Below are positions 7,528 to 37,055 of a stretch of DNA of 40,134 nucleotides, piece by piece. A program made the position numbers and the translations under genes. The notes beneath the pieces were generated by a model. That model was not told the DNA's origin. It was given only the letters and a program-made list of their open reading frames with translations, and did no database searches. Source of the DNA: Chrysochromulina tobinii (taxonomy: Eukaryota); the NCBI GenBank assembly GCA_001275005.1, contig JWZX01003149.1, forward strand, positions 1-40,134, given 5' to 3'. How positions within the stretch are numbered: the first letter of the stretch is position 1; every line of letters starts with the position of its first letter.

Positions 7528-8105
7528 TGCTTGCCGTTATCCGCGGGCACGGACCTTTTCTACTGTGAGGAGGTGCATCTCGTGCATGCAAGTATACATG
7601 TATTGTACCGCAAGCTCCGGCTCACAGCCGTTTCACACAGAGCTGCGTCATGCGTGTGGTTGTTTCGTGTACGAGCTGCTTCAAGAGGTTCAAGTTCAAG
7701 TTCAAGAGGTTCACAAATATGAACACGACACCCAAGACCCCTGTTGCGGACTGGACTCTTGCGTGCATACGGATGCATCTCCACTACCAGCTTGATGGTA
7801 GCTCGATGACCCCTCGGCCCCCCGTACTACAAGGACCCAAATACTATCGAACCGATACGTCTATAATGATTTCTGCTCATTCTTCCGCGCATCGTACGAA
7901 ACTACACTCCCCAGATGCACATACACGCCCACACCTTCGCTTGCTCCTCGCCTGTCGCTGCGTTGCCATGGCCGATCGTGGGAGCAGTGACCTCCGAAAC
8001 TTGACATGAGTTGCCAAACAAAAAAACAAAGTACTGTATCCGGGAGCCCTTGATGAACGTAGACGCGTGCTTCACCGCCTTGACTGTATCCGGATACTCG
8101 TCCCG

Positions 8106-13908: not shown

Positions 13909-16900
13909 CTAAAGCTCTAAGCGCAGTTGAGGCTTTGAAGCCGCGGCGGTGCGGATGGCCGCCTTGCACTCCTCGTCGAGCGCTGGGTTGTACTGCAGGC
14001 GCAGCGCGGACAGCGTCTTTGAGGTGTCGACCACCTTCGCCAGCCAGTGCGCCTCGGCCGTCTCCAGGTCGGTGGCGGTGAGGTCGACCTCGGTGACCGT
14101 CTTGTTATGCTTGAGCAAACCCAGGAGCAACCGCACCGACCCAGGCTCTAGGGGAGTCTCCTTTAAGCTGAGCACCTTCTCCCCCTCGAGCACCTCGAAG
14201 GCGTCGCAGCGCATGTAGCCCAAGCGGCACATGGCGCCTTCCTGCAGCAGCGAGTCGCCCAGCGACTGATAGAGGTTGGCAAAGCCCGGGATCTGGCGTA
14301 CGTCGAGCGACGTGACGGACGTGTTGCCCTTGAAGGCCTGTAACAGCGGGAAGCCATCGATCTTGGTGCAGCTCAGGTCGAGCGATGTGATCGTGCACGT
14401 TTGGCTCATCAAAAGCTCCTGCAGCGCCAACGCGCCTTCCCGACCAAAGTCGGCAGAAGCGAGGTGCAACGACGTGACGAGCGAGTAGAGCGTGCCACCG
14501 CTGGCGCGCATGCGCTTGAGGAGCTCCTTACAGCTCTTCTCGCTCATCTCGACCTCGTTGAGATAGAGGCCGAGCGCGGCGAGCTTGCAGAAGGCGGCTT
14601 GCGCCTTGAACTCCTTGGGGCACAAGGAGAGAATGCTCTGCTCCTCGCCCGCGCAGACGACGATGAGGCGCAGCGAAAGCAGCTCCTCGAAGATGAGGGG
14701 ATTGGCCACGAGGACATGCAGGTCCGACTCCTTCTCAACGTCGACGATGCCCATGAGCGCGCGCATCTCGATGGCCTGCTTGAGCATGTCTGACGAGGCG
14801 AGATAGTCGAGCTCGAAGCACTTAATGATGATCTCGCGCGGCGGCTTCTTGGCCGTCGCCTCGTCCATCAGCAGCTCCTTGAGCTTCGTAAGGGAGAGGA
14901 CGAGCGGCACGAGGCGTACAGGGCCAAGGTCGGGGGAGCCGTCGCGCAGCTTGGCCGCTACAATATACGTCATCTGCTGGAGCAAGAGCTCGTGCTCCGC
15001 CTTGCCACCGCTCAGGACGAACGCGGGCGCGGGCAAGTGCGTCGGGCCTCCGCTCTGGTCGATGGTGTCGTCGACAAGCTTATGCGCCGACATGACCTTC
15101 GGCTTTTGAGTGTCTGGCTGGGCCTTTTTGGCGGCCGGCGGCAAAGCCACCGGCGGTGGCGTGCCGGGTCGCTCCTTTGAGGTACGGTTGTCTTTTGGCG
15201 GCGGGGCCGGCGGCGGGGCCGGAAGAGCACCGGCGGGGCCGGCGATCGGCTCGCCCACGCCGGGCACATGAATCGTATCAAGGAAGATGCGCTGCTCGCG
15301 CACAGGCAGGTCCCTGCCCAACGCCTCGTCGCGCATGGTCGCGCGCTGGAGCACGAGCTTGTCGAGGTACGCGTTGCGCGCGTCCTCGTACCGCGATGCA
15401 GTGGGGAAGAGAAGCTTCGTGTGGTTCACCTCGTTGAGATCGACCTCCTTGATGACTCGCTTACCGGTGGACCCACGGTTGCCCAGGCGCACGCGGTGGC
15501 GAGAGCCGCGGCGCACGCCCATCCATTCCTCAACGACCGCGTCGAGCATAGCATTCTCGTGCATCAGCAGCAGCTTCTGGCCAGACTTGTACGAGGCCGA
15601 CGCCGTCCTGGACACCGTATCAGGCCGCGGGTCGACCGAGAGTTCAACGCCCTCCTTGGTCTCATTGTCGACCTTGACGGCAACGGTGTCGTCAGGTCGG
15701 ATCTTGACGACGGTCACAAAGTTGTTGCCCGTCTTCATGCGCGCGCCCACGCCACACGCGTACGCGAGCCACGGGCTGACCAGGATCGTGAGGACCTGCT
15801 TGGCCTGGCCGGTCGGCTGCCAGCGCATGTGGATGGTGACTATGGGTGCCGCCGTGCCAGGCAGCGGCGGCTCGGCCGTGCGCCATGGGAACCAGCGATT
15901 GTGGAGCAGCACGCGCTCCAGCCACGGCTCACCGTGCTTCTGGCTAGGCCGGAGATTGCCTACAACCTGCAAGTTGAACGCGGAGACGAGCTCGACATCA
16001 CCGCCGTCGGGCAGCGAGCTCGGGTCTGAACCGCCGTCGACGACGGTAAAGGGGACGCCCGAGCAGTTGAAGAGCAGGATCATCCCGCCGGGAGGTGCCC
16101 AGTCGTGCCGGGACGGTGCGTTCTCCTCGCGCCCCTCGGGTCGAATGCGCTGGGTGACGCTCTCCTCATCCTCAATGACCCGCCCGGCAAACTCGCGATC
16201 CGGGTCGAGCACCGCCTCGAGATCACGCCCTTTACCGAAACCGAAGAAGCGGCGGATGGCGCCGACGCCCTGGCGTGCCTGCTCGATCGAGGGCTTCTCG
16301 AGCGGGTTGCGTCCAACGGAGAGCTGCAACGCCTCGTTGAGCTCGCAGATGGTCACCGGAAGCTCCTGGAGCCTGTTCTCGGACAAATCGAGCTTGTTGA
16401 GCGCGCGCAGGTTGCCGATGGTCGCGGGGAGCACCTTGATCGAGTTCTTGTGCAGGTCGAGCGCCTCGAGCGCGGTGAGCAGGAACATGGACGCGGGCAA
16501 CTCGATGATTTGATTCGAGTGAAGGGAGATCTTACGCAGCGACGTCATCGTGCCGATGAGCGACGGGATGCCCGTGAGCCGATTCCTATCGAGCGCGAGG
16601 GAGCGGACGTTGCGAAGCTTGCACAGCGGCGCGAGGGCGTCCGGTGGGCAGTCGATGTCATCCTCATCCATTCGCAGGTCGACGATCGCATTCAGGTTGC
16701 TGCAAATGGACATCGCGAGCTCCTCCATCGCCTTGGCGTCGCCGCCGAGCCCGTTGCGGGCCACGTCGAGCAGGCGCAGGGGTGCCTCCCCAAGGCCGCT
16801 GACGATGGCTGCGATGCCGCTCGCGCCGAGCTGGTTGTTCTTCACATTGAGCTCCTGCATCGTGCGGTTCTCACGCGCGATCGCGCCAATCGCGTGCCCC

Positions 16901-19900
16901 GAGAGCGGCCCGAGTCCCCAGTCGGCCACGTTGAGTGCCGTGTCGGTGCCTGTGGCACCGCGGAGCACGGGCACGGGCAGCCGCGCCCCGTCAATCTTGA
17001 TCGATTCGAGGCACGGATGCATGCGCGCGGCCCCCGCGATCAGCGCCACGCCCTCGGCGCCGATCGGATTGTTCGAGATGTCGAGCTGCTTGAGCGTCTT
17101 GTTATCCTGGAGCGCGAGCTGGAAGAAGGCGGCGGCCGCGTTGTCGAGGCCCGTCTCGGTGACGATGACGTCCTCGAGCGACGTGTTGAACCGGAGCACG
17201 CCCGCCAGGAGCATGAGCACCGGGTTCGACACTCCTACCGAGTCGGCCACATGATCAGGCTCCTTGATCTTGACGGAGCTGCCGCGTGCAGCCGCCGCCG
17301 CTGCGGCGGCCGCCGCCTCGATGGACGCCTTGCGATCCTTGGCCGACTGGAGCTTGAGCTCCTTTTGGCCGGCAGAGACCTGAAAGGCGTCGCACGCGAG
17401 GAAGCCGAGGCGGCAGTTGCACTGCTCCATCTGCAAAAACGAGCCGAGGAAGGAGTAGATTGCATCTGTGTTCGCCGACGGGATGTCGCGGATGTCCACC
17501 GAAGTGAGCGACTCGTTGCGCTTGATCGCGAGGGCGGTGTCGTACCCATCGAGGCCCACATTGCCGCGCAGGTCCAGGAACTTGAGGGGGCAGGGCGCCT
17601 TCTCCCCCCAGAGTACCTCTTTGAGCATCGCGCCTGTCTGCTTGCCAAGATCGTTATTGGCCAGCAGGAGAGACGTGATCTTCTCGTAGCCCATCGTCTT
17701 CTTGGACAGACCGGACGAGAAGGAGGAGAGCAACTTGGCGCCGGCCTTGTCGTTGAGCTGGATGTTGGTCAGATTGATCTCGCGCAGCGGGCACACCGCG
17801 GACTCGCAGAGCGGCTTGAGTAGAATGTGGCCGCCCTCGCCCTCGGCGCCGATGGCGTTTCCGAGGCCCGTGTTCGACAGGTTGAGGCACTCGAGCATCG
17901 TGTTGGCGGCGATGAGCGTGCCGATCATCTCGCACGCCACGCGACCGAGCTGGCCTTCGATGCAAGTCTGCGACAAGTCGACCACCCGACCGCCGTCGGC
18001 CGCGGCCTCGGCGATGGCCTCGGCTTCGGCCTTCTCAGCCGCGACCTTCTCGGCCGCGGCGCCCTTGCTCCCGGTCGCCGGGGCCTTGGTGGCCTTGGTC
18101 ACCTCCGGGGGTTTCTCCGCCGTGGGCGTACCCGTCCACTTGGAGCCGTTGAGCTCTGGCACGGGCAGCCTCACCACGGCCTGGCCACCGGTGCGCGAGA
18201 TATGGATGAGGTCGAGGCGCGAGAGCGTCGAGTTGCCACGGAGCGCGAGCGCGAGCGTCGGGATCTGGTCCGAGCGCAGCTGCTTGAGCGTCACGTGCGT
18301 GAGCGTGCGGTTGCCGAGCAGGCAGCCGGCGAGCAGTCGGAACGGCTCAACCTCCTTGAGCTCCGCACGGGAGAGGTCGAACTCGCAAGCAGTCACTTTC
18401 GGCTCCAGCCCGAAGTCGTTGCAGAAGGCGACGCGCGAGCCAGGGTTGTTCAGCAGCGCCTCGCCGATGGCCGATCGCGCCGAGTTGGCCAGCGACGCGC
18501 CGCTGCCGATGTTGAAGGTGGTGAGCACGGTGTTGGTCATCATCACACCCGCGAGCAGCACTGCATCGGATGTGGACGCATCCTTGGGCCAGGTGAGAGA
18601 CGTCGTCGTCTCGGAGAGCACAAAGGTATCGCAGCTCAAGTAGCCGAGCTTGCGGGCCTTGTTCTCGAGGCACGCGCGCCCGATGTCGTCCTTGGCGCGC
18701 GAGGGCAGATGCCGATCGAGGTGCTCGCGGAGGTCAATCGAGACGAGCGACGGGTGCACACGTACAAGCTCGGCAAGGGCGGGCTCGACGCCCGGCTCAT
18801 TGTACGCGAAGCCGAGCTTCGTCAGGGCGACACAGGAGCGCAGTGCCCTGGCGGCGATTCGCACGCCAACCTGGCCGAGCTTGTTTTCGTTCAGGTTGAG
18901 GTCCGTGAGCGTGACGTTCGTCGCGAACGAGTCGCACACACGAGACCAGTCGGCGGGGATGGCGGTGAGCCGATCGAGGCCGTTGTCGCTCAGGTCGAGC
19001 GCCTTGAGGCTCTTGCACGTATTGATCATCTTGGAGAGCCCCGGCACGTCGTCCATCGTGATCTCGTTGTGCGACACGGTAATGGACTCGACCATGTTGT
19101 TGTCGTCGGTGATAAACCACAGGGCCGAGCGGCCGTTGGGCGAGAGCGGGTGCGCGTGGAAGTCCCAGTTGAGCCGTTGCATGCCGAGCAGAGAACCGAG
19201 GTGGCCCGCGGCGATGCGGCAAGTGTTGTTCATGTACCGGTTATTGAGGAACTCGGAGGCCGCCTTGTCGTTCGACCAGCCGCCCCAGCCGGGGCCCTGC
19301 GGCGGTGCGAGGCTCGTCACCAGCAGGATGAGATGCTCCGCGTATAACCCCTCCTGGAAGGAGAGGTGCTTGAACTGGTACTGCGCGGGCGCCTTGTCCG
19401 ACTGCATCGCGAGCGTCGCCGTAAGCGCGACGCCATAGTCACGGTCCATATCGAGGCGCGTCCACAAGCCGAGCTCCTCGGGCGTCGCGCCGAGCGCGCA
19501 GGCCACGTGCTTCGAGGTGAACTCGCGCCGCCCGTTCTCCTGGTTCTCGACGGCGACACGCCGGAGCATCTTCTTGGCGGTCTCTTGCAGCTGCGTCTCG
19601 CTCTGGCTGTTGGGCGCGATGACGAACTCGACGAGCGCCGTCACGGGCAGGTGCATCGAGTGCGACTTGGGCACGACCGCCGTGATGGACGTACGCAGAT
19701 CCGAGCCCTTGCCGCCCGCGTACTTGTCGAGGACGCGCACGACGAGCGAGTAGCACTCTGCCACGTCATCCTCTCCCTGCACGACGCGAACCTTCTTGCC
19801 ACGGAGCACCGAGTTGAGATCGAGCACCGGATCGTTGCTCACCGTCGTCTTCTTGGTGACGGCGGTGGCCTCCTGCCCGCCCGCGGCGTCGCCGCCCGCG

Positions 19901-22900
19901 GCGGAGAAGGACGAGCCCGCGCCCATCGAGACATCGAGCGCACCCTTGCGCTTCTCGCGGCGCGGGCGGGCGTCGGTCGCCTGCTCTTCCTCCTTCTCGG
20001 TCACTTCGGCGACCGCCTCATTGGCCTGCTGCGTGTAGGCGAGCCGCTTCTTGATGCCCGAGAGGATTCCGAGCTTGTACAACTGAAGCCGGTCCTGCGG
20101 CAGCTCCTCGAGGCTGATGGCGCCCGAGCCGCCCGAGCCAAGCGAGTAGCAGAGCAGCAGCAGCGAGAGAAGCACAGGCACACCGATCGCTTCGACGAGG
20201 AAGACGAGCAACGTCTCGAACTTGGTGTCAAATTGCCCCTTTGGCATGTTGACACGATTCATGAAAAAGTTGTAGTGCGCCGAGTAGCCCATCTCGACGT
20301 AGTACTTGCGCAGGTCCTTGTGCTCAGCCTCGATGACGAAGCACACGGCGACACCCTTGTGCCGGAAGAGCATCTGCAGCCTTACGTTTCGCAGGTGCGT
20401 CGGGTGCATCGTGTCTGGGTTGAAGGTGTTGTTGATCTCCTGCTTCGTGAGCGTCGCCTCGTCACCGTCGAAGTCCACCTCCACGCCCTTGGCGAGCGTC
20501 TTGACGAGATTGACGAGCTGCTCGCCCGTGGAGCACGGTAGCGTGATCGTGCCCAGATAGGTTTCAGGCGGCTTCTCGGCCGGTTCGGTCGTGGTCGGGT
20601 ACGTGTCCTCGAGCCAGACTTCGACCGGGTCGCGGTACTTCATTGCCGGCATCGCGGTGGCACTGCCCACGATGAAGTCGCCTAGCCCTTCTTGCTCCCG
20701 TTTGAGGCCGTAGTCGGCCATGCCGACAGTGTTGCACACGCAGCCGAGCAGGTGCATGGCCGCGGGTAGCAACCGCTCGAGGAGCGCAAACTTGTCGCCC
20801 TCCTTGGCGGTCGCCTGCGACCAGAGGCCAAAGGCGGGCATCGGCGCCGCCTTGGCGCCACGCCGGCCGCCCACCTGCGGCTGCTTGCGTAGCACACCGA
20901 TCTGCGCAAGCGACTCGTACACATCCTCGGGGAAGGTCCTCTTGAGATCCTTCTGCATCTGGTCGATGACCTCGTCCGTCTGTGCGCGCGTGCACGGCGT
21001 GGGCAGCGGCTTGATCTCCGAGTCGAGATAGTCGAGCAGCGTCGGGTGGTGCACCGTGCCCACCTTGCACGGCTTGATGAGCGCCTTGTTGAGCTGCTCC
21101 AAGAAGTTGGAGCGCAGCGCGCGACCTTGGACCGTCTTCGCCTCATCGAGCCAAGTCTGCAGGTCCTGCATATTGTCGAGCGCCATGCGCCGGCGCGAGA
21201 GCGGCGTGCGCGGCACTGGCTTGACAGCGGACGGATTCAGGATAGCCACGGAACCGGCGGGGCGCTTGGACTTCCCGTCGTCTTTGTCGCCCTTTTTGCC
21301 GCCCTTCTTGGCTGTCTTCGCCTTGGAATCCTCGATCTCGTCATCCAGGTCGGCCAGGTCGGCCTCCGCGGCGCCCTTTTTGCCCTTCTCGTCTCCCTTG
21401 GCCGCTTCGCCGCCGGCGCCCTCGGAAATCTCCTTCGTGTTCTTGCGATCCTTGGCGCCCTCCTCCTCCTTCCCCTCCGCAGACTTCTCCTCCTTCTCAT
21501 CCCCAAGCTTCTCGACTTCATTCCGGAGCGCCTCCGATCGGAAGAGCTCGCGGTACTTGTCGTCGAGGTACTTGCGGCACTCGCCGATGTTGACCAGGTG
21601 CTCGAAGAAGAGGTTGCCCTGCAGCTGCATCTGGATCACGTTACGCTGCTGCTCCTGCGAGAGCTCGAGGAGGTTCATGATCACGAAGCGCGCCTTGTAG
21701 TCGTCAAGGTCGACGCCCTCTGGACGCGAGGTGATCACGACGCGGCAGCCGCTCGTGACGAGCTCGTAGTGAACGAACGCCTCGACGACCTCACGCAGGC
21801 CGGCGGCCTCGTCCACGCCGTCGACGAGGATGACGCAAGCGCGCATCTCATACGCGAGCAGCAGCAGCGACTTCTCCTCCTTCCTGTCGATGAACTCGTT
21901 GCCAATGTACCAGCGCAGGAGGCCCTCGGGGTCCTGGAGCAGGGAGGTCGGGTCATCGCCATGTTCGCGCAACAGACGCACGATGCGCTGCACGAAGACG
22001 ATCACGGGCACCAGCCGGATGCCTTCGCCCGCGTTCTCGCCTGCGAGTGCGTCGGCGAGCAAGAAGAGACACTGCTTGACCATCCACGTCTTACCGGTGC
22101 CCGGTCCGGCGCGGCAGAGCACAGGCTGCGCGATGTGGGAGCCGTGGGGCCGGCGTGGCGAAGGCTCGAGGAAGTTGGTCACGAGCTGGGGCACATCGTG
22201 CACGCTCATGTACTCGGGCGTGTTGCACCCGTCTAAGATGTTGGCCGCGGTCATAAAGATGAGCTGCTCGGCGATGAGCAGCTGATTGCCAGTGATCGCA
22301 TCCTCGACCTTATCCTCGGTCGTCGTGAGCCACTTGCAATAACGCATCCGCAGCTCCTCGTACACATCGGCGTTCATCGCCGGGTCTACGAGGACCGCGT
22401 GGTTGAATTGGTTGAGCGAGGGGCACGACTGGCACCCCGTGGTTGCGCCGATCGGCTTGACGTTGACCATGTGGCGCGGCCCTTCCGAAGCGTCAAGGGC
22501 CCCGAACCAACGGAGCACCGTCGCATCGACGAGCATCTGCTTCTTGTCCTGCTCGTGCAGTAGCAAGAGCCGCGTGTCTCGGGTGTAGCCTGCGTACGCG
22601 CACGGCAGGATGGTGGACGGCTGAATGTCGACCAGCTGCTCGCCCTTCACGCCATCAACCTTCGAGTAGCCGTCGACGCGGCAGACGACGCGATCGTCGG
22701 CCAGGATGCGCTGCACCGTCGCGCAGCCAAATATCTCCTTGCCCTTGCGCACGAGCATACGCGCGCCGATGGAGCAGCCGTACGCGAGCCAAGGATACAC
22801 TTTGACGGTGGCGACCTCTCGACCCCATGTGAGCTCGAGTTCAATCGCGCCCGAGCCCTGCCAGCCATCGTGCATCAGACCGTGCTCCTCCGCGAGCATC

Positions 22901-25900
22901 CAGTCGTCGGCGAATTCAACACGCTCGAGGAAGGGCATCCCTAGCTCCTTGGCGAGGCGCACGACGCCGATGCGCTTGCGGCTTGTCTTGGACACCAAGT
23001 CGAACTGTTGCTCGCCTGGGAGCTTCTCGAACGACTCGCTTCCCGTCCACTTGGTCACCTCGAAGGCGGCGTTGTGGGAGTTGAACATGAGCAACAGCGT
23101 CGCGGGCTTCTCGATGAGGCGGTGGCGCGAGGGCGTGCCTTCGTCGCTCCTGCTCAGCGGCCGGCGGCCCGCCACCATGAACGGCAGCGCGCTCGTGTGC
23201 TTCTTGGTGAGCACCTTCTCCACCTTCTTGCCGAGCGCGCGCGAGAGCGACTTGGCCGTGTGCACCCTCAGATCGAATTCGAGCTTGAGCGGCGTGATGC
23301 TATCGAGCATGGACACCTCGACGCCCTTATGTTCTTTGGAGACCTGGATCCAGCCAATCGGCTCCTTGACCTGCGAGTCGCCCTTGGCGAGCCAAGCCCA
23401 CATCTTACCGTCGGCCCCGACCTTCTCCTCGAGGACGCGCACCAGCGCGTCCTTTGGGATGTCGTCGAGCTTCTTAGAGGTGTTGTCGGGTCCGTCGCGG
23501 CAGTTGATCGTGCGAGAGGCCTTTTTCAGCTCGTACGTGGCGGAGGCGTACTTGAGGTTCTCTATGCCGTCCTTGGTGAGGCCCGTCACCCAGCCCAGCG
23601 CCTCAGTGTCGCCGTCGAGCGCGATGAACATGCGCTTGGTGCTGTCTAAGGTCTTCTCCTCGAGCACGCGCATGAGGCAGCCCACCCCGATTTTCTGGCC
23701 TACCGTCGGAGACGCGGGGTTCTCGTCCTTACGCGCGACGAGGGGCACCATCGAGATCATCATCGGCGCGGTGCTGAACGGGTTCACATCCTCCTTTTGC
23801 TCCTCCTCAACCTTCTTGCCCTTCTTCCTCTTGCCCCCGACGGGCTCGACCTCTTTAACGGCCTTCTTCTCCTCTTTCTTCTCGTCCACCGGCGCCGAGC
23901 GTGGCGACGCGGAGCCCTTCTTGACCACCTTCTTGGCCCCGGCGGCGGCCGCGCCTGCGCGCGGCGTCGCTGAGCCGCTCGGCTTGCCTCGCGGCGTTGT
24001 CTTGCCGTTGCCACCACGCGCCGAGTCTTTGCGCTCCGTGTCCCCGCCGCCTGTGCGCGACGAGTCCCCGCCGCTGTCGTCCTCCTTGGTGCTGTTCTTG
24101 CCTTTGGTCGCGTCCTTGTCCTTGTCCTTGGCCGCGAAGGGGTTCTTCTTCTTCCCATCGAGGAGTTTCTTCATGCCGGGCTTGCCACCAGCCTTCTTCT
24201 CTTCCACCGCCTTCTCTTCCGGCGTCTGCTCGACCTCGGCGTTGGCGAGCAGCGGCACAGGCTTACCTCCCGGAGAGCTTGCTTTCTCGTTGGCGTGCTC
24301 CCCCTCCTCGGCGCCCTCGTCCTTGCTGTCGGGGATGACGAGCACGGGCTCGGTGATCAGCTCGGCGCTCGAGATCGCCTGCCCCTCGACTGGCTCACCC
24401 TCCACGAACTCGCCCTCGGCCAGGTCGACCCCCTTCACCTGCTCGCCACCCTTATTGCTCGCAACGGTTTTGCTCAGGTCGAGGTTCACCGGCTTCGTCG
24501 GATTCTCCGCCTTCGCCTTCTCGAGCCGCCTCACCTCTTCCTTTCGCATGTGGTTGTCATCCGAGAGCCGCAGGCCGCCCAGGAAGCCGCGGAAGCCCGC
24601 GGCCGCGGGCAGGGGCGGCTTGAGCGGGAGCTGCTGCTGCTCGAGCATGTGCACGAGTGAGTCGATGGCCGCCGATGTGTACGTGCCACGAAGCACCTGC
24701 TCGCCAGAGATGCGGTCGGGCCACAGGCCGCAGGCCCCATTGCCATGCAGGAGCAGCTCGTTGATCGTCGCGCCGCCGAGCATCGCGTCCGAGAGGGCGG
24801 TGAACGCCGCGCCGCTCCACTCTTCGCGCTTCTCGCCGCTGCCAAAGACGGGCGTGATGCCGCACAGATTGTTGTGCGAGAGGTCGAGGTACTTGAGCGC
24901 GCTCGCGCCCTTGAGCGCGGCCGCGACGAGCACGCCGCCTTGCACCCCGAGCTGGTTGTACTGCAGGTGAAGCGTATGCAGCAGCGGGCAAACCGCAAAA
25001 AACTTGGGGAGTGTTTCGGCAAAGCCAACGCCGAGCTTGTTGCGGCTCAGGTCGAGGATCCCGAGCTGGCGCGGCAGATCGACCGCAGGCGCCATCGCGA
25101 CGACCACGGTCGCAACGTCGGATATCTTGTCGCTGGCCACCGTGCTCGCCTCGGCTTTGGCCGTCGCCATCCCCCAGTTGGAGCGCCGCGTCTTCTGGTT
25201 GACAATCTGCATCAGGAACTTGACGCCCGCGTCGTCATCCATACTCGTCTTGGCCAGCAAGACCCCTAGGATGATTGGGCAGGCCGCAATGAGAGAGGTC
25301 ATCAGAGGTCATCAGTGATCATCAGTAGCACTAACCTAGGATCATGGGGCAGGCCGCAATGAGAGAGGTCATCAGAGGTCATCAGTGGTCATCAGTAGCA
25401 CTAACCTAGGATCATGGGGCAGGCCGCAATGAGAGAGGTCATCAGAGGTCATCAGTGGTCATCAGTAGCACTCACCTAGGATCATGGGGCAGGCCGCAAT
25501 GAGAGAGGTCATCAGAGGTAATCAGTGGTCATCAGTAGCACTCACCTAGGATCATGGGGCAGACCGCAATGGCGCGCGCGATCTCGAGCAGGCCGTCGTA
25601 CGGCTTCGATTCGCCGTCCTTGGGCGCTTTGGGGTCGGGCAGGCACATCGGATTGCGCGAAAAGTCGATCTCGGTCACGGTACGAGCGCGCCTGGAAGAG
25701 GTTTCGAGAGCTCGCCCGATGGCGGCGGCACCCGAGCTCCGAATGCGATTGCCCGCCATGTTGAGCTTCGTGAGCTGCTCCGTGCGCGTGAACGCCTCCG
25801 CAACGAGAGCCGCCTCTTCATCGTTCAGGCGGTTGTCGCGCAGGTCGACGGCCACGACCGCGCGCAACAGCAGCCCGATGGCGGCGAACGAGGTGGGACG

Positions 25901-28900
25901 ATGGCCGCCGACGCGCGCGCGCAGATTGAGGGTCGTGCTGCCCGCCTCGGCCGACGCGCTGAGCAGCCCCGTCTCGAAGTCCTTCCCGATCTCGTTGCCG
26001 AGGCGCAGCGTGTTGCCCCACCACGGCGACCAGCACCATGGCTTTGCCGCCTCGGGAGGCAGCTTCATCCCATTGCAGATCGCCTGCGCGGCGAAGTACT
26101 CCTGGAACGACAGGTGCGACGACTGCATCTCGATGGGCATCATCGAGAGCAGGCTGAGCAGCGGCAGCCGGTCTTGACGCACGCGCTCGCACATGCTGTT
26201 GATCTCGTCCTGACGCGGCGCGGGCAGGTTGCGGCACGCGAGCGCCACCGCCTCGGCGCGCTCGTCACCGAACGCGGTTCGCAGCTGAATGGCTTTGAGC
26301 TCCTCCGGGTTGGCGAGGCCGAGCGCGGCCGTCTGCAGGTCGCCCAGCCGGATGATGCGCCGCTCGGCCGCGTGCGTCTGGAAAAAGGCGGCCTCGAGTA
26401 GCTTACGCAGCTGCGGGATGGGCACCATCGACTTGCTCTGCTGCTTGTCCGCGCGCTCCTTGCGCTCGAGACGGTCGAGCATCGTCGTCGAGGCGACGCG
26501 GTAGAGCTCGACAACGGAACGAGGCATCTCCACGTCCACCTCGTCCAACAAATCTTCCTTCGAGACGCCAGACTTCTTCTTCGGGTCCTTGGCGATCGTG
26601 GTGGACACGTCCAGAAGCGCTGCCTCGGCCGCGGCCGCTTGACGCAACTCAAAGATCGAGATGACCATCGAGAGCACGAGCGGGTTGCCCGTCACGCGGT
26701 CGCCCGTGTCCGCATCGATCGGCACCTTGGTGTTAATGTACCTCATGAGCGTGGCCGCGCGCTTCTGACCAGTCTTGTCACCAACGGCGCGGATCAGACG
26801 GCGCTCGACCACCTCGGTCTGCTGCCCCGGCGTAAGGGGGCGCAGCTCGAGGTGGTGGTAACCCTTGGTCGAGAAGAGCTCTTTGGAGACACCGTTGGGT
26901 CGCGAGGTCACGATGAGCACGTGGCCCTGCGGCGCGAGCACCTCAGCGACGTGGCGCTCGATCGCGTCGCGAGCGCGGCCCGCCTCGTCGATGCCGTCGA
27001 GCAGCAGCACCGCACGCCGCGCCGTGAGCGCCTGGCGCAGGAACCGGTAGATCTCCGAGTGCATGCCGTGCAACGCGCTCAGGTACGCATCGACCCAATT
27101 CCACGCGCGCGCAAAGCCCTCCTCGTCGGCCAGCAGCCGCTTCTGCAGGTCCTGGACCCGGACGAGCACGGGCACCAGGTCCGTGTGGGACGGCTTCCAA
27201 TCGGGTCCCTCAACCGCCCCAGTGCTGCGGAGCACTACGTGCATAACGAGCTGCGACATCAGGCACGACTTGCCGGCGGCAGGCCCCGCAGTCACAAGCA
27301 CGCACACGGGCGCATCGACATCGGAGCCGTCGAGCCGCTTGGCATGCTCGGTGTGCAGCCACTCGCACAGCGCCTTGACATTATCCACTGCCAGGTGGGC
27401 GCCTGAGGTGTCGCTCGCATCCGCAGGCTTGAGCTCGATGGGCACGCAGTGGCCGAGAGAGTCAAGCCGATGGCCGGAGAGGGCGTCGACGATTGATGCG
27501 TGGTGCGAGCGCATCGAGCGGCAGTGGCGCTTCCACAACAAGTGGAAGGAGCTCTGCGGCAGCTCACGCGGTGCGTGGTTGAAGGGGGTCAGGCTCAGAT
27601 TGAACTCGGCGCCGTTGGATTCGGCGCGAAGCCGGTGGACGCTCGGCTGTTCGGCATCCAGGCAGGTGACCACCTCGGCGTCGACCCACGCGTCGCCGTC
27701 GAGCCACTGCTCGCCGCCCACCTTGACGACCAGCTGCTGCCCGGGCGCATACCGGCGCAGCCCGACCACCCCGAGCTCCAGCAGGCTGTCAAAATAGAAT
27801 TTCTCAAGCCTGTCCCACACCGATGGGGCGGCGCCGTCGTCGGACGCAGCGGCGCCGCCGGCGGCCACGCTCTTGAACGAGCGGCTCTTCCTGAAGCTCG
27901 CGCCCGGCGTACCCTCATCGTCCTCGAGGGCGCCCAGACGCGAATTGACGCTCTTCGTTTTGGGAGTACTCTTGGCGCTCTGCTTCGCATTGGGTTGCGT
28001 GGGGGACGCCGAGATCAACGCCTCCTTCATCGCGATGGCGCTTGAAATGGAAAGGTCGAGGACGGCGCTCTGCCCAGCCTCGAGATTCTGCACCTCGATG
28101 TACAGGCTGCGCCCCGACTCGAGAGTCACCATCTCCTGCACCGTGAGTGCGAGCGCCTTCTCGAGCACCTTGAGATGGTTCTTGAGCGTAAGGTCCTTAA
28201 GCTCAAGGTAGCGCCACGCATCAGAACCGGGTTCGGCTTTGGCGGCCGCCAGACGCGCCTCGTCCTCCCGCGCGCCGAGCTGCCCCTTTGCGTCGAAGAG
28301 CTCGGCGCGCTCCGCGTCCAGCAGACGAAGCTCGTCGGTGGTGCCTTCGAGCACACCCTTGCGGTCGCCCGAGGGGCGGTTGGCAAAGGTGCCTGAGCCC
28401 TCCTTGAGAGTCGCGCTCGTGGGGGGCTCCGCGGCCCTCGCCGTGAGCAGCTCCAGCTCGTCGGCCATCGCGACGGTGCGCTGCCCCAGCCGCTGGAGCA
28501 GCTCCTCGGTCAACGCCCTGGGCGGCATCGAGTAGACTCGAGAGGGCAGCTCCTCGATCAGGCCCATCAACACGAGCCCGCTCGAAATCGCGATGAGCGC
28601 CGACGTGTAGTTCGAGGCGAGCAGCTGGATCTCCTTCTTTTTCTTCTCCTCGAACGCCTCGAAGCTACTTGAGCCTTGCTTGAAGGACTGCTTGAATGAC
28701 TCCTCGTTTCCGCCGGGGGTCGAGTCATCGTCCTCCATGGTGCGGCTCTCTACCTTCTGTTGCGCCTCGATAAGGGCACGCTGCCGCTCCTCGAGGTCGG
28801 CCTTGGATGCGCCGAGCTGCTCCTTCGCCGCCTCCACCTCGGCCACCTTGCAAGCCGTGAGCTCCTTGGCCACCTCGAGCCGCTGCTGCTTGAGCTCTGC

Positions 28901-31900
28901 CTGGCGTGTGGCTAGGGCCGGGTGTGCGATCACAATCGTGTGGTACGAATCCTCAACCTCAGCGCCCATGAGCTTCAGCTGCACACCCGCCACAATGATG
29001 CTCTGACACGCTCGGCGCGCGCGCATCATTTGGTCGATGACCATCGTCGAAGAGGGCGTGAGGCCCTCCAACTCGATCTGTAACGACTGCAACACCCCAA
29101 ACTCGACCGTCTTCCGTCGACCGCCGGCCGGGCCGTGGCTTGGAGAGACTCGCTGCGCGAGCTTGCGCATTGACGTGATCGTCAACACGTCGCAACGCAC
29201 GGCGTCGCAGAGCGCCGCATACGCCATGCTGGTGGGCTTGCGCCAGGGCAGGGCCACTTGGTTGCAGTCGTCGAATGCCACCAGCCGACGCACGGGCCCC
29301 TCCTCCTGCTCCTCGCGCTCCTCCTCGCGGCTGCTCGGGATCAGATGCTCCGCGGCGCAGTGCTCGCGCAACTCTCGGGAATCGCTCTCGGTCACGCCTG
29401 ACACGGCGAGGACGGAGCGTGCGACAGAGTAGGGCGTGATCACTGAGAATCGCGAGAGGCCGTTGCCGCCCTCGAGCCGGCTCTCAATCTCGGGGACCAT
29501 GAGCAGCAGCTGGCCGGGCGCGAGCTGCAGTGAGCTCGCGGCCGCTTGAACCTTGCCGATGGGCGAGGGCACGGGCGGGAACGGGAGCGCCGCGCTGAGC
29601 GCGAGGCTGCACTTGCATGCGAGGTGCATCGCGACGCGCTTCTGGCCGCTCGACAAGCGCGGACCGTGCAGGTGGCCGAGCGCCGTGCTGAGCAGGGGCA
29701 GCAGCAAGTTCACCGCATGCAGGTCAGCGTCGAGGCACGGTCGCTCACCCGGCAGGCCGCTCGAGCGCTGCTGCTCGAGCTGCGAGCACTGCGCCACCAC
29801 GTCGCACGAGCGCTCGATGGCCAGAGTCGCCAGCTGCAGCGCGAGCTTCGGACGTGACTCCATCCCTGCGGGCGTCTCCACGATCGCCATCTGCCAGAGC
29901 TGCGGCGGATCGCCCTCGCGCACGGCGAAGAGCGTGTCGATGACGGCACACACTTCGGCCTCCCGCTTACGAGCGACCTCGACGTCCACGAGCTGGGCCA
30001 CCGCCGCTCGGAGCGTCTCACGTGCCTGGATGTCGCGCTTCGACTGGTGCTCGGCGGTATGGTACTGCCGGGGCGGTGGCTCGAGAGCACGTGCCGCGAG
30101 CATGGCGACATCCTCGCAGCCGTCGGCCATCGTGATGATGTCGAGCGCCGTCTTCTCCGGGACGCCGAGCATGCTGCCCAGCTTGGCCGCGAGCGCTGTC
30201 GCGGGTAGCGCCGACCTTTGTATCTCGGCGAGCGAGATTGGGATCGGGTAGTGCTCGACGAGGATCGAGCCGAGCAGGCGCGCCGTGTCGGCGAACGCGG
30301 GCCCCGGATTGGAGGCCGCGAGGTCGGCCAGCCACACGTTGTCCTGCGCATCCACCAGGACTTGCGCCGGCCGCAAGTCGCCGTGCTGCTGGGTGTAGAG
30401 AGGCTGCCACTCCGCAAGCCACGCGACGGGCTCGCCCCCCCATCCCGAGCTGCTCTGCAGCAGCCGCACCGCGCTCAAGATCGGCTCGAGGGTCACCTCA
30501 TCGAATCGCTCTGCCGAACCCAACGAATCTCTCGTGGGTCGCCTCGTCGAGCCATGCTCGTGCTTCGAACGATGATCGTGCTCGAGGTTCACAGGCTCGA
30601 GTACGATCGAGTGCTCGAACTGGTGGCGCTCGAGAAGCTTCATCTGATCCTCATCCTCGAGCTCATCGAGCTCGGGCATTTCTTCGAGCAATTTCAAGAG
30701 CTCCATGGGCGGCTTGTAGTCCACCTTCTTGACCAGAGCGGCGTGCGCGGCCGACGGGCTGAAGGCGATGCACAGGCTCTCGAGCAGCTGCGCGAGCGTC
30801 GTGCTGATCATCCCCTCCGACGCCGTCGCCACGTGCTCAGCACGACGCGCCGTCTTGAGCGCGAGCCCGCTCAGCGGCCCTCCATGCCCCCAGAGCTCGT
30901 TCAAGACGGTGACGGGCGAGCACGAGACAAACGAGGACTCTGAGCGTGACTGGCCACTCAGATCCAGCAGCAGCAGGCCGCGCAACGTGGTGAGGAGCTC
31001 GACCTTGCCCAGCTTGCCATAGAAATCCGGCGTCACCCAGCAGGCTCCCGTCATCTCAAGCACCATGCCGCCGAAGTCCGCGTCGCCGGCGATGGGCGCC
31101 GCCGGCGCTGCCGCCGGCGTCGCGACCACGAGCTTCGAGAACGAGCCTTCGCCTGCCGAGATCGCGGGCGGGGCCTCGCGCTCAGCACCGTTGAAGGCGA
31201 CGTAGAGCGGCCCGCGCACCGCCCGAACGGTGTCGGCACCAAGGAGCGAGGTGACCTCAGTGAGGCGTTCCGCCTCGTGCATGATAGCTGGGGCCGCACT
31301 GAGTCGAAGCACCGTGGGCTCATTGGCGGTGCCGTCAGCGTCGGCCGAATCCACGAGAAGCGAGAGGGCGCCGGAGGGCTCCTTTTCGAGCACCTTGCAG
31401 ATGATGAGCGACGAGCCCACGTACAGGCGCGCGATCAGGCGAACGTACGCGACCTTGCGCACCGAAGGCGCGCCGAGATCACCGCGCAGCTGCAGCACTG
31501 TCTCGATGAAGGCAGGCGGGATGCGCCCATCCTTATCTCCAGGGCACACAATCGTTCCGTTGCCGAGCTCGTAGAACTCGAGCCCAGCTCGAATGGCTCT
31601 GTGCACGTTGACCCACACGTACGCCGTGCAGTCGGCGCGCATGCCAGAGACGATGTTCGCCTCGCCTCGAATCCCCTTGCCAAAGTGGACGAAGTTGCGA
31701 CTCATGGTGGAGAGCCCCCGCTTGAGGATGCCACTCTCGCCCTCGAGGACCTCGAGATACGTGCCGTGCAGAGCATACTCGACCGCGGCCAACGTCGAGT
31801 AACCGTCGGCCGGCTCGTCGACTACCAGCCGCACGCCGGGCTTCATGAGCGATGGGATCGTGGTGATCGTGTGTCCTTCATAGGCGCGGATCCGAGGGAT

Positions 31901-33271
31901 GGGCGTGGTGTAGCTGAGCTCGAAGCGGCACACCTCGCCAGTGTTGACGAGCTCTTTGAGGTGGTCCTCGGTGTACTTTAGGCGCTCGCCCACGGGCCCC
32001 TGCAGCGATTCCCAGCGCCCGTCATCGGCGACCCCCGGCCCATGGTTGACGTACTCGAGCGCAGCCTTGATCGTCACCCATCCATCCTTTTCCATCTGGA
32101 CGCCGACGCGCACCGCGTGGTGGCGCAGCAAGTTGGACAGAAGCTTCGAGAGACGGACAAGTGGCTTCGGGGGCTCGGACGTGGCCGTCGGCTCGACGCT
32201 GTCACCGACCAGGTAGAGCTTCGCGCGCTGCCAGCTGCGCTTGGCCTTCAGCGCAGCGAGCTGCTGACGCTTCTTGAACGACCTCTCGGGCGACTTCTCG
32301 AGGTCCCTGGTACGCTGGCGCGCCAGTGCACGGGCCGCTTTCTCGTTGGCCGCCCTCTCAGCTGCCCTCTCAGCGGCCGCTGTCGCCTCGGCCGTCTTGG
32401 CCGCCTCGGCGGCTGCAGTCTCCTCGGCAATCTCATCGGCAATCGGCGCAGCGGCGGCAGCGGCGGCGGCGGCGGCCTCCGCCGCCGCCTGTTCCTCAGC
32501 CTCAATCTGTGCCACGAGCGCCGCGGCCTGCGCCTGCGCCTCCACCTTTTGCGCCTCCCAAGCGGTCTCCTGCTCGGCCGCATCCGCCTCCTGCTCGGCC
32601 GCATCCGCCTCCTGCTCGGCCGCATCCGCCTCCTGCTCGGCCGCATCGGCCGTCGCGCGGGCCGCGTCCTCCTCGGCCATCTCCGAGGCGGCGGCGGCGG
32701 CGGCAATATCGAGCTCCATTTCGGAGGCAGCTTCTGTGGGCTGCGGCGAGAGCTGGGAGGCAGGCTCTGAGTCCAGCCTGGCAGAGACGGGTCGCAGCAG
32801 GTTCTGTGGATCCATACGGGGAGAGCCTAGCACCACGAGGGGACCGAGGACAGATTCGCTCGCTGCCCTGCCCCGTTCCGACTGTAGATCGTCCTCCTTT
32901 GCTGCCTCGTGATCGCGTGTGTACAGCAGCCGCGTCTGTTGGCGCGACATCGCCCCACGCTGGCGTGCCTGGATGACGGCAGCCGCGCGGTCCACATCGA
33001 GCTTCGGGATGACGACGCCGCCGACGGTATCGGCGGCGTCGGTGGGTGGGTCACGAGCGGTGACTGCGCGGCTGCTGCTGCTGCAATTGCTGCGGGCGCT
33101 CGTAGGCTCCTTGATGAACTCCGGGTCCGCCTCCGTGATGGGCTCCGGGTCCGCCTCGTGCGGCCGCGAAAAGAGCAACTGCGTCCGCTTCCGAGTCATG
33201 GCGCCACGGCCGCGTGCTTGTATGACCGTGGCGCACCGCTCCAGCTCCAAGGGCGGAACCTCAGGTGGCAT
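13909..33271 (-). CDS. Giant (~6,360 aa) multi-NACHT NLR-like protein: IQ x2 - Tpt1/KptA - kinase-like - NACHT1 - LRR - SH3-like x2 - NACHT2 - LRR - degenerate NACHT3 - LRR; exons 33271-25546 and 25265-13909
   Basis: The 2579-aa and 3797-aa ORFs join in frame (ATG ATC CTA G|GG GTC TTG = MILGVL) on removing GT..AG intron 25545-25266. NACHT1: TAGPAAGKS, VLLLDGIDE, IVTSRP, GNPLVL, HLSFQEYFAA. NACHT2: RAGPGTGKT, VILVDGVDE, VITSRP, GVPVLL, FKHLSFQEGL. Many RNI-like LRRs plus a block of typical LRRs (~16240-16630). Confidence 0.85.
23340..23760 (-). other. Two tandem SH3-like (SH3b-type) domains within the giant gene
   Basis: LVARKDENPASPTVGQKIGVGCLMRVLEEK..LGWVT and INCRDGPDNTSKKLDDIPKDALVRVLEEK..IGWIQ follow the lnvR.gP...s..i..l..G..v.vl....GWv pattern. 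Confidence 0.6.
25266..25545 (-). repeat. Spliceosomal intron composed of exactly four tandem 70-bp units
   Basis: Minus-strand unit GT(G/T)AGTGCTACTGATGACCACTGATGACCTCTGATGACCTCTCTCATTGCGGCCTGCCCCATGATCCTAG repeated 4 times (280 bp, few substitutions). Its last ~25 nt copy the end of the upstream exon (25546-25570). Confidence 0.9.
29640..31450 (-). other. Protein-kinase-like (APH/choline-kinase-type) domain, probably catalytically degenerate
   Basis: HGDLRPAQVLVDAQDNVWLADL matches HGDLxxxN...(W)xxDF, but with N->Q and DF->DL. The beta3 Lys appears replaced (EPTVLRL) and the Gly-loop is eroded. Boundaries are approximate. Confidence 0.6.
31500..32160 (-). other. Tpt1/KptA RNA 2'-phosphotransferase (PTS_2-RNA) domain within the giant NLR-like gene
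   Basis: LSKLLSNLLRHH..MEKDGWVTI, CRFE, RIRAYEGHT, LHGT, ILKRGLSTMSRNFVHF, SGMR, FYELGNGTIVCPG..GRIPPAF. The Arg-His-Arg-Arg catalytic tetrad appears intact. Confidence 0.9.
32567..32647 (-). repeat. 21-bp coding tandem repeat (~3.9 copies) encoding EQEADAA
   Basis: CTCCTGCTCGGCCGCATCCGC repeated on the + strand, in frame in the Ala/Glu-rich N-terminal region of the giant protein. Confidence 0.9.
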
Positions 33272-33627
33272 GGACCAAGGTGGACCGGTCCACTGGTGCG
33301 CCCCGTACCTACCGCCTTTGCGAGGAAGGCCTTCGCTTTGGGAGCAAGAAGTTGGGATGATTGCGTTTCATCGAGCTCCACTTCCTACATGTGAAAAAGG
33401 CTCCTAGATGTCCTTTAATTACTGTCAAATTTGCGAACGTCAGCCTCATGGGTCCTTCTCAGCGCAGAAATGGGCTGGACGCTGGAGGGGCATCTCAACC
33501 CGGCAGACATGCGGGCGTATCAATCCCAAGAATGACAACCGGAACGAAGCGAACTGCTTGCTTGCGTATATTCTTCCGTCGGGAGTCAGAGGTGCTGGCC
33601 AATTTATGAGGACCGCGTTTTCCCTAA
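33272..33627. promoter_or_regulatory. Short divergent (putative bidirectional) promoter between the giant NLR-like gene and the SAMHD1-like gene
   Basis: 356 bp of lower-GC sequence between two oppositely oriented ATGs (33271 on -, 33628 on +). Function inferred from geometry only. Confidence 0.55.
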
Positions 33628-35514: not shown

Positions 35515-35747
35515 CGGGTCTCAGATTCAATTTTCCTTGACGGTCAGTATGTGTTTTGAACACCGCGTGGTTCATTATCATAACTGTCCTGTCCCGAGCA
35601 TGCGCGCAATGCGACTCAGGAGCGCTCAACTTGACGCCTTTTCGATTTCGTTTGCTCTCGCGTGAACGCGGTCATAACGCGCGGATCCTGGACACGCAAG
35701 TCGCGCCGCGAGTCCCTACGTCCTCCTGCCTCTTCGGCCGCGGGGTA

Positions 35748-36762
35748 ATGTCCGCCTCCCTCCTGTGCCACCGCGACGCGCTCACGATCGCCGCACACAG
35801 CACGTGCCCAAGCAGCAACTGGCACACGCGCATCGCGCCGCTGATCTTGTCGCCGGAAATGGTGATGTTGAACGTTGGCGCGAACAAGGGCTTCAACTTG
35901 CTTGAGTTTGCGCAGCGCTATTCGGTCACGCCAAGCAATCTGACGCACCAAAAGTGGTACAACCTGCTGGTCGAAAACGGCTGCAAATCGCAGTGCTGTG
36001 GTGTCTGTCGCCTGTGCAAGGCTCGGCCCATCTCGCGGCAGGCAACGGCGAGCCTGAAACTGCACGCCTTTGAGCTACAACCTGCGAATGCAGCTTTGCT
36101 CCGACGCATGATGACCGCGACGGGTCTGCCGGTCATGATTCACAGCACAGCGGTGTCCAACTTCACGGGCACGGTCTACACGGCAGCTACCGTCGTCGCT
36201 GGATCCGAATCGTTCGGACTCAAGCACAAGCAAAGCAAGAACGACGTCGCCCAGCCCGTGACCACCATTGACGCATTCCTCAAAACAACTGGAATCGAGC
36301 GCGTTCATCTTGTCAGCATCGACACAGAGGGTACATACAACCGTCCACGCGTCCTTGCCCACCCTAATCGTGTGTTGTTCAGCACTGTCTTCCGGCCACG
36401 TTGCATCTCATCAATCACCCGCACTCGTCGCAGGTGAGGACCCACTCGTCATGATGGGCATGGTTCAGGCCCTTTCTGCGCATCGCGTCGAAGTGGTCGA
36501 GTTCGAATACAACCGAAAGTGGAAGGTAACTATGAAGGACCCTCGGCCTGTTGGCCCGTTCGTCGAGTGGATGCGGCAGCTGGGATACACGTGCTTCTGG
36601 CAAGGAAACCATGGTGCACTTGCTCAGATGTCGGCGCCTTGCTTCGTCGAGGAGACACGCACTCGGTTTGGGTTTGCGCGAAGCAATGGTGTCTGCGCCT
36701 ATCGCGAGGATGTCGTGGCTGCGTTCCGAGATTGCCAGCGCACCTCGTCGTGCTCTTCGTAA
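35748..36762 (+). CDS. FkbM-family SAM-dependent methyltransferase; two exons, intron 36331-36433
   Basis: LNVGANKG and LHAFE motifs. Splicing GAG G|GTAC..CGCAG|GT GAG restores SIDTEGEDPLV, followed by EFEY and LGYTCF. First in-frame ATG is 35748. Confidence 0.85.
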
Positions 36763-37055
36763 ATGGTCAGAAACGAGCATCGCAAAGCCTCACTTCCTGT
36801 GTGAGGACTCACGCCGAGCGTCGGTGCAAGTCGTGGGCTCGCGGCGATTCGACCCCCCCGACCGCCGACGTACAATCTTCTGTCAGCTGTACCGGTACGT
36901 ACTTCCTCCCCGGCGAGTCAGACATTAGCAAGCGGTGTGTCAGGGGTAGGTGCACTGATAGGTCACCCGACGTGCAACGCTAGGTTAGGCGGCCGATCGG
37001 GGCCCATTCACAGGAAAGTTACCGGTACAGTACAGTACGGTCCGTGCATCATGCG

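What the first reader, a model, noticed from the sequence alone, without database searches (positions are those of the whole stretch)
31500..32160. Apparently active Tpt1/KptA domain in the effector position of an NLR-like protein
Seen: a full Tpt1/KptA domain with the R-H-R-R tetrad (LLRHH, CRFE, MSRNFVHF) and HGT motif, N-terminal to the first NACHT. Established: Tpt1 is an ADP-ribosyltransferase-fold enzyme that uses NAD+ to remove RNA 2'-phosphates after tRNA ligation, and some homologues ADP-ribosylate 5'-phosphorylated DNA/RNA ends. It is normally a small stand-alone protein. Inference: here it could be a ligand-gated nucleic-acid ADP-ribosylating or RNA-repair effector. I do not know of this as a described NLR effector.
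Basis: partly seen in the sequence, partly recalled or inferred. Interest (0 to 1): 0.82.

Follow-up and report, generated by a model that had tools for sequence, protein, structure and literature searches.

The report
RNA-repair enzyme fused to algal NLRs
A haptophyte alga transcribes a giant NACHT-LRR receptor-like gene whose front end carries a Tpt1/KptA RNA-repair enzyme domain joined to a kinase-like domain, a layout shared by a diversifying family of related genes, which likely lets these receptors tag nucleic-acid ends with ADP-ribose in defence (activity untested).

Summary
The Tpt1/KptA domain is real: Pfam PF01885 E 1.8e-30, R-H-R-R tetrad and HGT intact, and a confident model matching mammalian TRPT1. 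It lies in a gene of about 6,360 codons from Chrysochromulina tobinii. One RNA contig spans Tpt1 to the first NACHT in 3 of 4 runs. (1) Tpt1 is not next to the NACHT. It is fused to an atypical kinase-like (TCAD9/APH) domain, and about 1,380 residues separate it from NACHT-LRR. (2) 'Active' needs care. This copy has lost two near-invariant phosphate-pocket residues (Lys to Val, Gln to Glu). They are dispensable in some Tpt1 enzymes but arrest an archaeal one at the ADP-ribosylated intermediate. Its kinase motifs are also broken. The Tpt1-kinase-NACHT(-LRR) layout recurs in diverged relatives with both enzymes intact. These include a transcribed paralogue in the same sequencing runs, alongside decayed and reshuffled copies. 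Best reading: an NLR-like haptophyte family with a nucleic-acid ADP-ribosylating cassette (0.45). A decoy, a non-immune scaffold and decay remain open. The paper searches found no description of it.

The parts
25546..33271 (-). Exon 1 coding sequence (first ATG at 33271, inferred start), 7,726 nt: IQ, Tpt1, kinase-like, coiled coil, SH3-like module, NACHT1, first LRRs
   Evidence: ORF; exon length and GT donor; listed RNA contigs stop at 33322-33331 in 3 of 4 runs
33185..33241 (-). IQ calmodulin-binding-like motif 1
   Evidence: Pfam IQ E 3.5e-4, 20.5 bits vs cut-off 20.3; coordinates
32936..32992 (-). Second IQ-like motif
   Evidence: pattern match only; similar motifs in relative P0003
31472..32161 (-). 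Tpt1/KptA domain: tetrad R415 H416 R481 R557 and HGT kept; Lys to Val479 and Gln to Glu497 at the phosphate pocket
30188..31450 (-). Atypical protein-kinase-like domain (TCAD9/APH-like), predicted pseudokinase in this copy
   Evidence: Pfam TCAD9 E 1.6e-4, 21.4 bits, below cut-off 40; GGFSG to KEPSG, beta3 Lys to Arg, HGDLxxxN to Q, DF to DL, each invariant in all relatives with a residue there (15 or 17 of 17 rows)
28001..29299 (-). Predicted coiled-coil-rich linker
   Evidence: weak Pfam TPR_MLP1_2 hit E 5.8e-4; otherwise inferred from sequence
27350..27799 (-). Unnamed module (SH3-like by eye, with an FNH motif) that precedes each of the three NACHT-like units and is conserved in relatives
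   Evidence: alignment; tblastn; no Pfam hit; no useful Atlas hit
26000..27340 (-). NACHT1 with Walker A GPAAGKS, Walker B LLDGIDE, TSRP, GNPL and HLSFQEYF motifs
   Evidence: Pfam NACHT E 9.3e-7, 29.3 bits vs cut-off 26.7 on the segment; motifs
25266..25545 (-). 280-nt GT-AG intron made of four 70-nt tandem copies; its removal joins the two ORFs in frame
   Evidence: RNA contigs of X14 and X16 run 26 nt past the acceptor with the 3 mismatches expected from exon-1 letters
13909..25265 (-). Exon 2 coding sequence: LRRs, low-complexity and SH3-like stretch, NACHT2 (Walker A near nt 22100), LRRs, a degenerate third NACHT-like unit without a Walker A lysine, LRR
   Evidence: RNA contig cover

Best explanation
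This is a transcribed haptophyte gene for a NACHT-LRR receptor-like protein with a Tpt1 plus atypical-kinase cassette at its front, and the cassette is likely the output arm of an intracellular defence receptor that would transfer ADP-ribose from NAD+ onto phosphorylated nucleic-acid ends. Shown: the domains, their order, one transcript, the family, and the residue changes. Inferred from STAND biology: the LRRs sense a ligand, and the NACHT exchanges nucleotide and oligomerises, which clusters or releases the cassette. Inferred from Tpt1 chemistry: the acceptor is a 5'- or 2'-phosphate on DNA, RNA or NADP. In relatives with an intact kinase that phosphate may be written by the kinase itself, as ArkI does for KptA in archaea. 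In this copy the kinase is predicted dead, and the pocket changes would favour a lasting ADP-ribose cap over clean phosphate removal, or would weaken activity. It may therefore depend on an intact paralogue or on ends made by other enzymes.
For: Architecture. Tpt1 runs straight into the kinase N-lobe in 9 of the 150 listed representatives. Tpt1, kinase and NACHT lie in one ORF in P0033 and on one contig in L005 and L019. Of 16 kinase-domain hits, 9 carry NACHT and 6 carry Tpt1. Selection on catalysis. Kinase motifs are invariant in relatives at 35-40% identity to the window. The tetrad is whole in every clade member whose sequence covers it. Receptor-family behaviour. There is a cluster of kinase-NACHT proteins 70-96% identical to each other, half Tpt1 domains re-inserted between kinase and NACHT in P0185 and P0187, decayed copies L019 and L021, and swapped partners: ubiquitin-like in P0013, weak Nudix in P0188, and ART plus ankyrin in the neighbouring-branch protein P0047. 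Chemistry. TkoTpt1 K63A and Y77A make the ADP-ribosylated intermediate and no final product (PMC12678800, passages). These positions correspond to V479 and E497 through the Cth and Rsl alignments. Context. NACHT, LRR and TIR genes are up in virus-recovered Gephyrocapsa huxleyi (PMC12489294, passages), which is circumstantial and concerns another species.
Against: Tpt1 is about 1,380 residues from the NACHT, unlike typical NLR effectors. The protein has three NACHT-like units, IQ motifs and about 6,360 residues, which is unlike a simple receptor. The same Lys and Gln/Tyr are dispensable in RslTpt1 and in yeast complementation (PMC6333775 section 14 and passages; PMC10415124 passages), so step arrest is not a general rule, and the effect of a Glu there is unknown. 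This copy is the only kinase-dead row of 18 in the alignment. Its pN/pS against a 97% identical locus is 0.44 for Tpt1 (3 synonymous, 4 non-synonymous changes) and 0.63 for the kinase (6 and 11), too few to show constraint. The gene is present in all 4 RNA runs laid, with no infection on record. The family's LRRs match flagellar and ribonuclease-inhibitor-like LRR proteins better than NLR LRRs. No known defence profile matched convincingly.
Confidence: 0.45

Rival explanations
1. Integrated sensor or decoy. The Tpt1 and pseudokinase domains bind nucleic-acid ends, NAD+ metabolites or invader proteins that target RNA repair, and trigger the NACHT or a partner receptor without needing turnover.
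For: Kinase motifs are broken and the Tpt1 pocket is altered in this copy while the folds are kept. More decayed Tpt1 copies persist in L019 and L021. Half domains are inserted at another position in P0185 and P0187. An intact paralogue is in the same runs, as in sensor-helper pairs (recalled).
Against: All four catalytic residues and HGT are kept in this copy, and most relatives keep both active sites.
Confidence: 0.22
2. Non-immune signalling scaffold, for example calcium/calmodulin-regulated and flagellar or haptonemal, in which Tpt1 handles NADP or RNA-end phosphates locally.
For: IQ motifs also seen in relative P0003; giant size; top LRR matches are flagellar or ribonuclease-inhibitor-like proteins; transcribed in all 4 runs laid; archaeal Tpt1 accepts NADP(H) (PMC10622864, abstract and outline).
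Against: Paralogue expansion, domain shuffling and decay fit conflict genes better than structural ones. LRR similarity of this kind is generic. IQ motifs were not seen in the other full-length N-termini inspected (P0006, P0012, P0177, by eye).
Confidence: 0.18
3. Decaying passenger. The cassette worked in the ancestor of the family, but in this paralogue both enzymes are losing function and only the NACHT-LRR part matters.
For: Changes at all the invariant kinase motifs and at two Tpt1 pocket residues; the lowest identity to all relatives, 34-40%; pN/pS 0.44-0.63 on small counts.
Against: The open frame, tetrad, HGT and SGMR motifs are kept. P0004 shares the same kind of changes (Thr, Asp) and groups with this copy at SH-aLRT 97, so the changes are old rather than recent decay.
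Confidence: 0.15

Closest known systems
Tpt1/KptA/TRPT1 RNA 2'-phosphotransferases (PF01885; PDB 7yw2, 6e3a, 9lda)
   Same: Fold, R-H-R-R tetrad, HGT and SGMR motifs; closest solved relative is mouse TRPT1.
   Different: Embedded in a giant multidomain protein; Lys and Gln/Tyr of the phosphate pocket replaced; belongs to a clade of 18 rows holding all 10 kinase-fused rows tested (SH-aLRT 92, quick tree, not starred). KptA fusions are known, for example with Nudix in Bodo saltans virus and within RNA-virus polyproteins (PMC9503650, passages), and many appear, but none with NACHT was found in print.
NLR / NACHT-type STAND receptors with NAD+-using N-terminal enzymes (plant TIR-NLRs; TeTIR-NACHT, bioRxiv 10.64898/2026.09.21.753143, passages; bacterial NACHT proteins, search listing only)
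   Same: Enzyme, then NACHT, then repeat domain; NAD+ as the predicted substrate; family expansion and domain swapping.
   Different: The enzyme is an ART-fold nucleic-acid phosphotransferase rather than a TIR-type NADase; it is paired with a kinase-like domain and lies far from the NACHT; this gene has three NACHT-like units.
ArkI-KptA writer/eraser pair of archaeal tRNA 2'-phosphorylation (PMC9095486, passages)
   Same: An atypical protein-kinase-fold enzyme working with KptA; the modelled N-lobe of the L005 kinase aligns with TkArkI at Z 8.0, rmsd 3.1, 89 residues.
   Different: ArkI ranks no better than RIO and APH kinases (Z 8.2-9.8) and only the N-lobe was modelled well; here the two domains are fused and tied to NACHT-LRR; the substrate is unknown.
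TCAD9 / APH-like kinases of bacterial ternary conflict systems (PF19974; PMC7159879, passages)
   Same: Relatives pass the TCAD9 cut-off (47-63 bits vs 40). That paper reports rare APH-like kinases and sporadic NACHTs among the effectors.
   Different: Eukaryotic, intron-bearing genes; no vWA-MoxR context; KptA does not occur in that paper's main text.

Membership tests
Tpt1/KptA | Full-length PF01885 match above cut-off | tested here: met
   106.7 bits vs 26, profile 3-177 of 177
Tpt1/KptA | Arg-His-Arg-Arg catalytic tetrad and HGT motif | tested here: met
   R415, H416, R481, R557; H534-G535-T536
Tpt1/KptA | Two-lobed winged-helix plus ART fold | tested here: met
   model pLDDT mostly 86-98 over the domain; Foldseek E 1.1e-13 to 7yw2
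Tpt1/KptA | Ancillary phosphate-pocket Lys and Gln/Tyr (conserved, not essential in all enzymes) | tested here: not met
   V479 and E497; Lys in 140 of 143 and Gln in 137 of 144 homologues with a residue; roles
Tpt1/KptA | NAD+-dependent phosphate transfer or ADP-ribosylation | not testable with these tools
   needs an assay
NLR-like NACHT STAND receptor | NACHT domain with Walker A/B, sensor, GxP and winged-helix motifs | tested here: met
   Pfam NACHT 29.3 bits vs 26.7 on the segment, 25.1 on the whole ORF; motifs
NLR-like NACHT STAND receptor | C-terminal repeat (LRR) domain | tested here: met
   LRR hits after NACHT1 and NACHT2; relatives P0179 and P0187 end in LRRs
NLR-like NACHT STAND receptor | Effector domain directly N-terminal to the NACHT | tested here: not met
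   kinase-like domain, coiled coil and an unnamed module, about 1,380 aa, lie between
NLR-like NACHT STAND receptor | Ligand-induced oligomerisation and a defence output | not testable with these tools
   only circumstantial: family diversification and PMC12489294
Active TCAD9/APH-like kinase | Gly loop, beta3 Lys, HGDLxxxN, DF | tested here: not met
   window has KEPSG, Arg, Gln, DL; relatives keep all
ArkI RNA kinase | Specific relationship to ArkI and tRNA 2'-kinase activity | tested here: inconclusive
   N-lobe Z 8.0, no better than RIO and APH kinases; C-lobe poorly modelled

The most novel reading that the evidence does not exclude
Haptophyte algae have an NLR-like immune family whose output is nucleic-acid ADP-ribosylation: a fused atypical kinase writes a phosphate on RNA or DNA and the Tpt1 domain caps it with ADP-ribose, and some members, including this one, are natural step-arrest enzymes that leave the cap on.
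Probability: 0.25. Interest if true: 0.88.

Novelty: new variant of a known kind. Interest (0 to 1): 0.66.

Why it matters
Known enzymatic NLR outputs that use NAD+ mostly destroy it or make signals from it (recalled; TIR cases). A receptor that ADP-ribosylates nucleic-acid ends would be a new output chemistry for this receptor class. It would also give a role to a Tpt1 clade that is no longer a small housekeeping enzyme. Haptophytes form blooms ended by giant viruses, and their antiviral machinery is poorly known, so a defined family with intact, altered and decayed members is directly testable. The natural Lys and Gln substitutions also offer a test of Tpt1 step arrest.

Tried and rejected
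Separate gene: rejected. There is one open frame, and single RNA contigs span Tpt1 to Walker B in X14, X16 and X18; X15 is broken into pieces there. DNA carry-over as the source of the RNA contigs is unlikely: splice evidence at this intron, spliced contigs on L005, and zero RNA depth upstream of L005 where the DNA run has depth 41. Tpt1-region search among proteins of 1436-4570 aa found nothing among 751 candidates, although P0033 (2378 aa) exists, so that search is insensitive. The 'longer' search gave only P0002 and P0003. No relative of the kinase in prokaryote genomes or viral contigs, nor of this Tpt1 clade in viral contigs, with the patterns used; these patterns are clade-specific, so this is weak. 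PADLOC gave only a marginal hit for P0001 (E 8.6e-4, no passing stretch). The Atlas look-up of the pre-NACHT module gave scores under 0.8. An Atlas look-up of the domain after the kinase N-lobe in P0015, HET-like by eye only, did not complete. Foldseek on the kinase model gave no match at E 0.001 or better, and its C-lobe was poorly predicted. NACHT1 has no solved relative by phmmer. The careful tree did not finish; only the quick tree is reported, built from 144 rows, leaving out most domains under 165 aa and the near-identical P0002. A housekeeping TPT1 could not be checked. Earlier-finding look-ups returned nothing. A recalled review of RNA-repair domains in biological conflicts was not held and may list such fusions; no supplements were read.
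Full report
Observation. The finding lies on the minus strand in a 2,611-codon open frame, 33367..25532 (residue numbers follow P0001). Pfam PF01885 covers aa 403-610 along nearly its whole profile at E 1.8e-30. The closest solved relatives are mouse and human TRPT1 by sequence and by predicted fold.

Organism and gene. A window ORF cluster holds a protein annotated from Chrysochromulina tobinii on a contig of 40,134 bases, the window's length, and that protein begins as the window ORF at 35541-36437 does. The window is therefore from this haptophyte. No genome was available. A 280-nt GT-AG intron (25545..25266), built of four 70-nt copies, joins the first frame to a 3,799-codon frame, for about 6,360 residues. 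RNA contigs of X14 and X16 pass the acceptor by 26 nt with 3 mismatches, exactly the difference between the exon-1 end and the intron end. Single RNA contigs cover Tpt1 through NACHT Walker B in 3 of 4 runs laid. No contig spans the whole message.

Anatomy. The order is: IQ-like motifs, Ala/Glu-rich linker, Tpt1, a kinase-like domain starting within a few residues, a coiled-coil region, an unnamed module, NACHT1, LRRs, then a second module-NACHT-LRR unit and a degenerate third. NACHT1 passes the Pfam cut-off as a segment and has Walker A and B, TSRP, GNPL and HLSFQEYF motifs. About 1,380 residues separate Tpt1 from it, so Tpt1 is not in the usual effector slot.

Activity. Among 151 homologous domains aligned, the Lys two residues before the third Arg is kept in 140 of 143 rows with a residue, and the Gln of RAxQGH in 137 of 144. 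The window has Val and Glu. These are K62/Q78 of RslTpt1 and K66/Y80 of CthTpt1, which contact the transferred phosphate (PMC6333775, passages). Alanine at either position leaves RslTpt1 active and complementing (section 14). Mouse K79A keeps 60% and 21% ADP-ribosylation on ssDNA and ssRNA (PMC10415124, passages). In TkoTpt1, K63A and Y77A give intermediate and no product (PMC12678800, passages). Activity is therefore plausible but may be shifted or reduced. The kinase-like domain has lost the Gly loop, beta3 Lys, catalytic-loop Asn and DF Phe, all invariant in the 15-17 relatives covering each site. A model of the intact L005 kinase matches RIO, APH, FN3K and ArkI kinases over the N-lobe only (Z 8.0-9.8).

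Family. Of the 150 best Tpt1 representatives listed (1,971 hits in all), 9 continue into the kinase N-lobe. P0033 holds Tpt1, kinase, NACHT and LRR in one 2,378-aa ORF. A search with an intact kinase region gave 16 proteins, 9 with NACHT and 6 with Tpt1. Nine of them start within 24 residues of the Gly loop, where L013 has a GT-AG intron after a Tpt1 exon, so their Tpt1 exon may simply be uncalled; this was not shown for them. Of 22 loci, L005 and L019 carry Tpt1, kinase and NACHT on one intron-bearing contig. L005 keeps both active sites, is 36% identical over the query, and is present in a DNA run and three RNA runs that also hold the window. It is probably a paralogue, since it also shares the intron repeat. 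L019 and L021 have decayed Tpt1 and kinase N-lobes. P0185 and P0187 carry half Tpt1 domains between kinase and NACHT. One clade member, P0016, is labelled Phaeocystis antarctica by its source; most others are unnamed, so the haptophyte range is inferred. The 10 kinase-fused rows tested fall in one 18-row group (SH-aLRT 92, quick tree).

Mechanism. I commit to an NLR-like defence receptor whose cassette ADP-ribosylates phosphorylated nucleic-acid ends (0.45). Domains, transcript and family behaviour are shown. Sensing, oligomerisation, substrate and defence role are inferred. The kinase-writer idea borrows from ArkI and KptA (PMC9095486, passages) and is untested. Rivals are an integrated decoy (0.22), a non-immune scaffold (0.18) and a decaying passenger (0.15). 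Against my reading: the distance from the NACHT, the dead kinase in this copy, generic or flagellar-like LRR matches, uninformative pN/pS and no defence-profile match.

Novelty. Searches for Tpt1+NACHT (22 papers, 20 listed), KptA+NACHT (2), KptA+fused+ADP-ribosyltransferase+eukaryotes (4), haptophyte+NACHT (18, 17 listed), TCAD9 (26, 20 listed) and a six-term NLR-effector query (1) showed no description of this fusion; most were judged from listings. The C. tobin genome paper has no occurrence of NACHT, NLR or phosphotransferase in its main text (PMC4580454, term search). The library lacks most subscription papers and one relevant review, and supplements were not read. Verdict: a real and apparently undescribed variant of the NACHT-LRR receptor kind; interest 0.66.

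Noticed in passing
window 33628-35514 (+): SAMHD1-like dNTP triphosphohydrolase (phmmer E 3.6e-54 to human SAMHD1), head to head with the NACHT gene about 350 nt from its first ATG. SAMHD1 is an antiviral factor in animals (recalled); linkage in relatives was not checked.
   Followed up: partly
window 25266-25545: The intron is four tandem 70-nt copies that each include the exon end. Its repeat motif recurs in L003-L005 and L018-L020, and bins holding such introns reach very high contig depth, suggesting an abundant intron-forming repeat.
   Followed up: partly
P0047 (1424 aa): Tpt1 from a neighbouring branch fused to a weak NAD:arginine ART domain (E 0.0078) and ankyrin repeats, a second receptor-like Tpt1 fusion.
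   Followed up: no
P0015, P0022: Tpt1 plus only the kinase N-lobe, followed by a different domain that looks HET-like by eye and has no Pfam hit.
   Followed up: partly
P0188: The same kinase with a weak Nudix hit (E 0.029) in place of Tpt1.
   Followed up: no
proteins: Other Tpt1 fusions among the long homologues: NADAR, microbial PARG, RNase T exonuclease, Nudix, FHA, poly(A) polymerase-like, and tandem Tpt1 repeats.
   Followed up: no
L008:300-3000: Tandem partial duplication of the kinase C-lobe and an inserted Tpt1 NAD lobe, a snapshot of domain shuffling.
   Followed up: partly
window 14343 and 31760: All four RNA runs differ from the window at these two positions (A to T; C to T, the latter inside the Tpt1 coding region), probably strain differences or assembly errors.
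   Followed up: no
window 6058-7536 (-) and 36984-38387 (+): A separate LRR gene and an NHL-repeat gene lie in the window.
   Followed up: no
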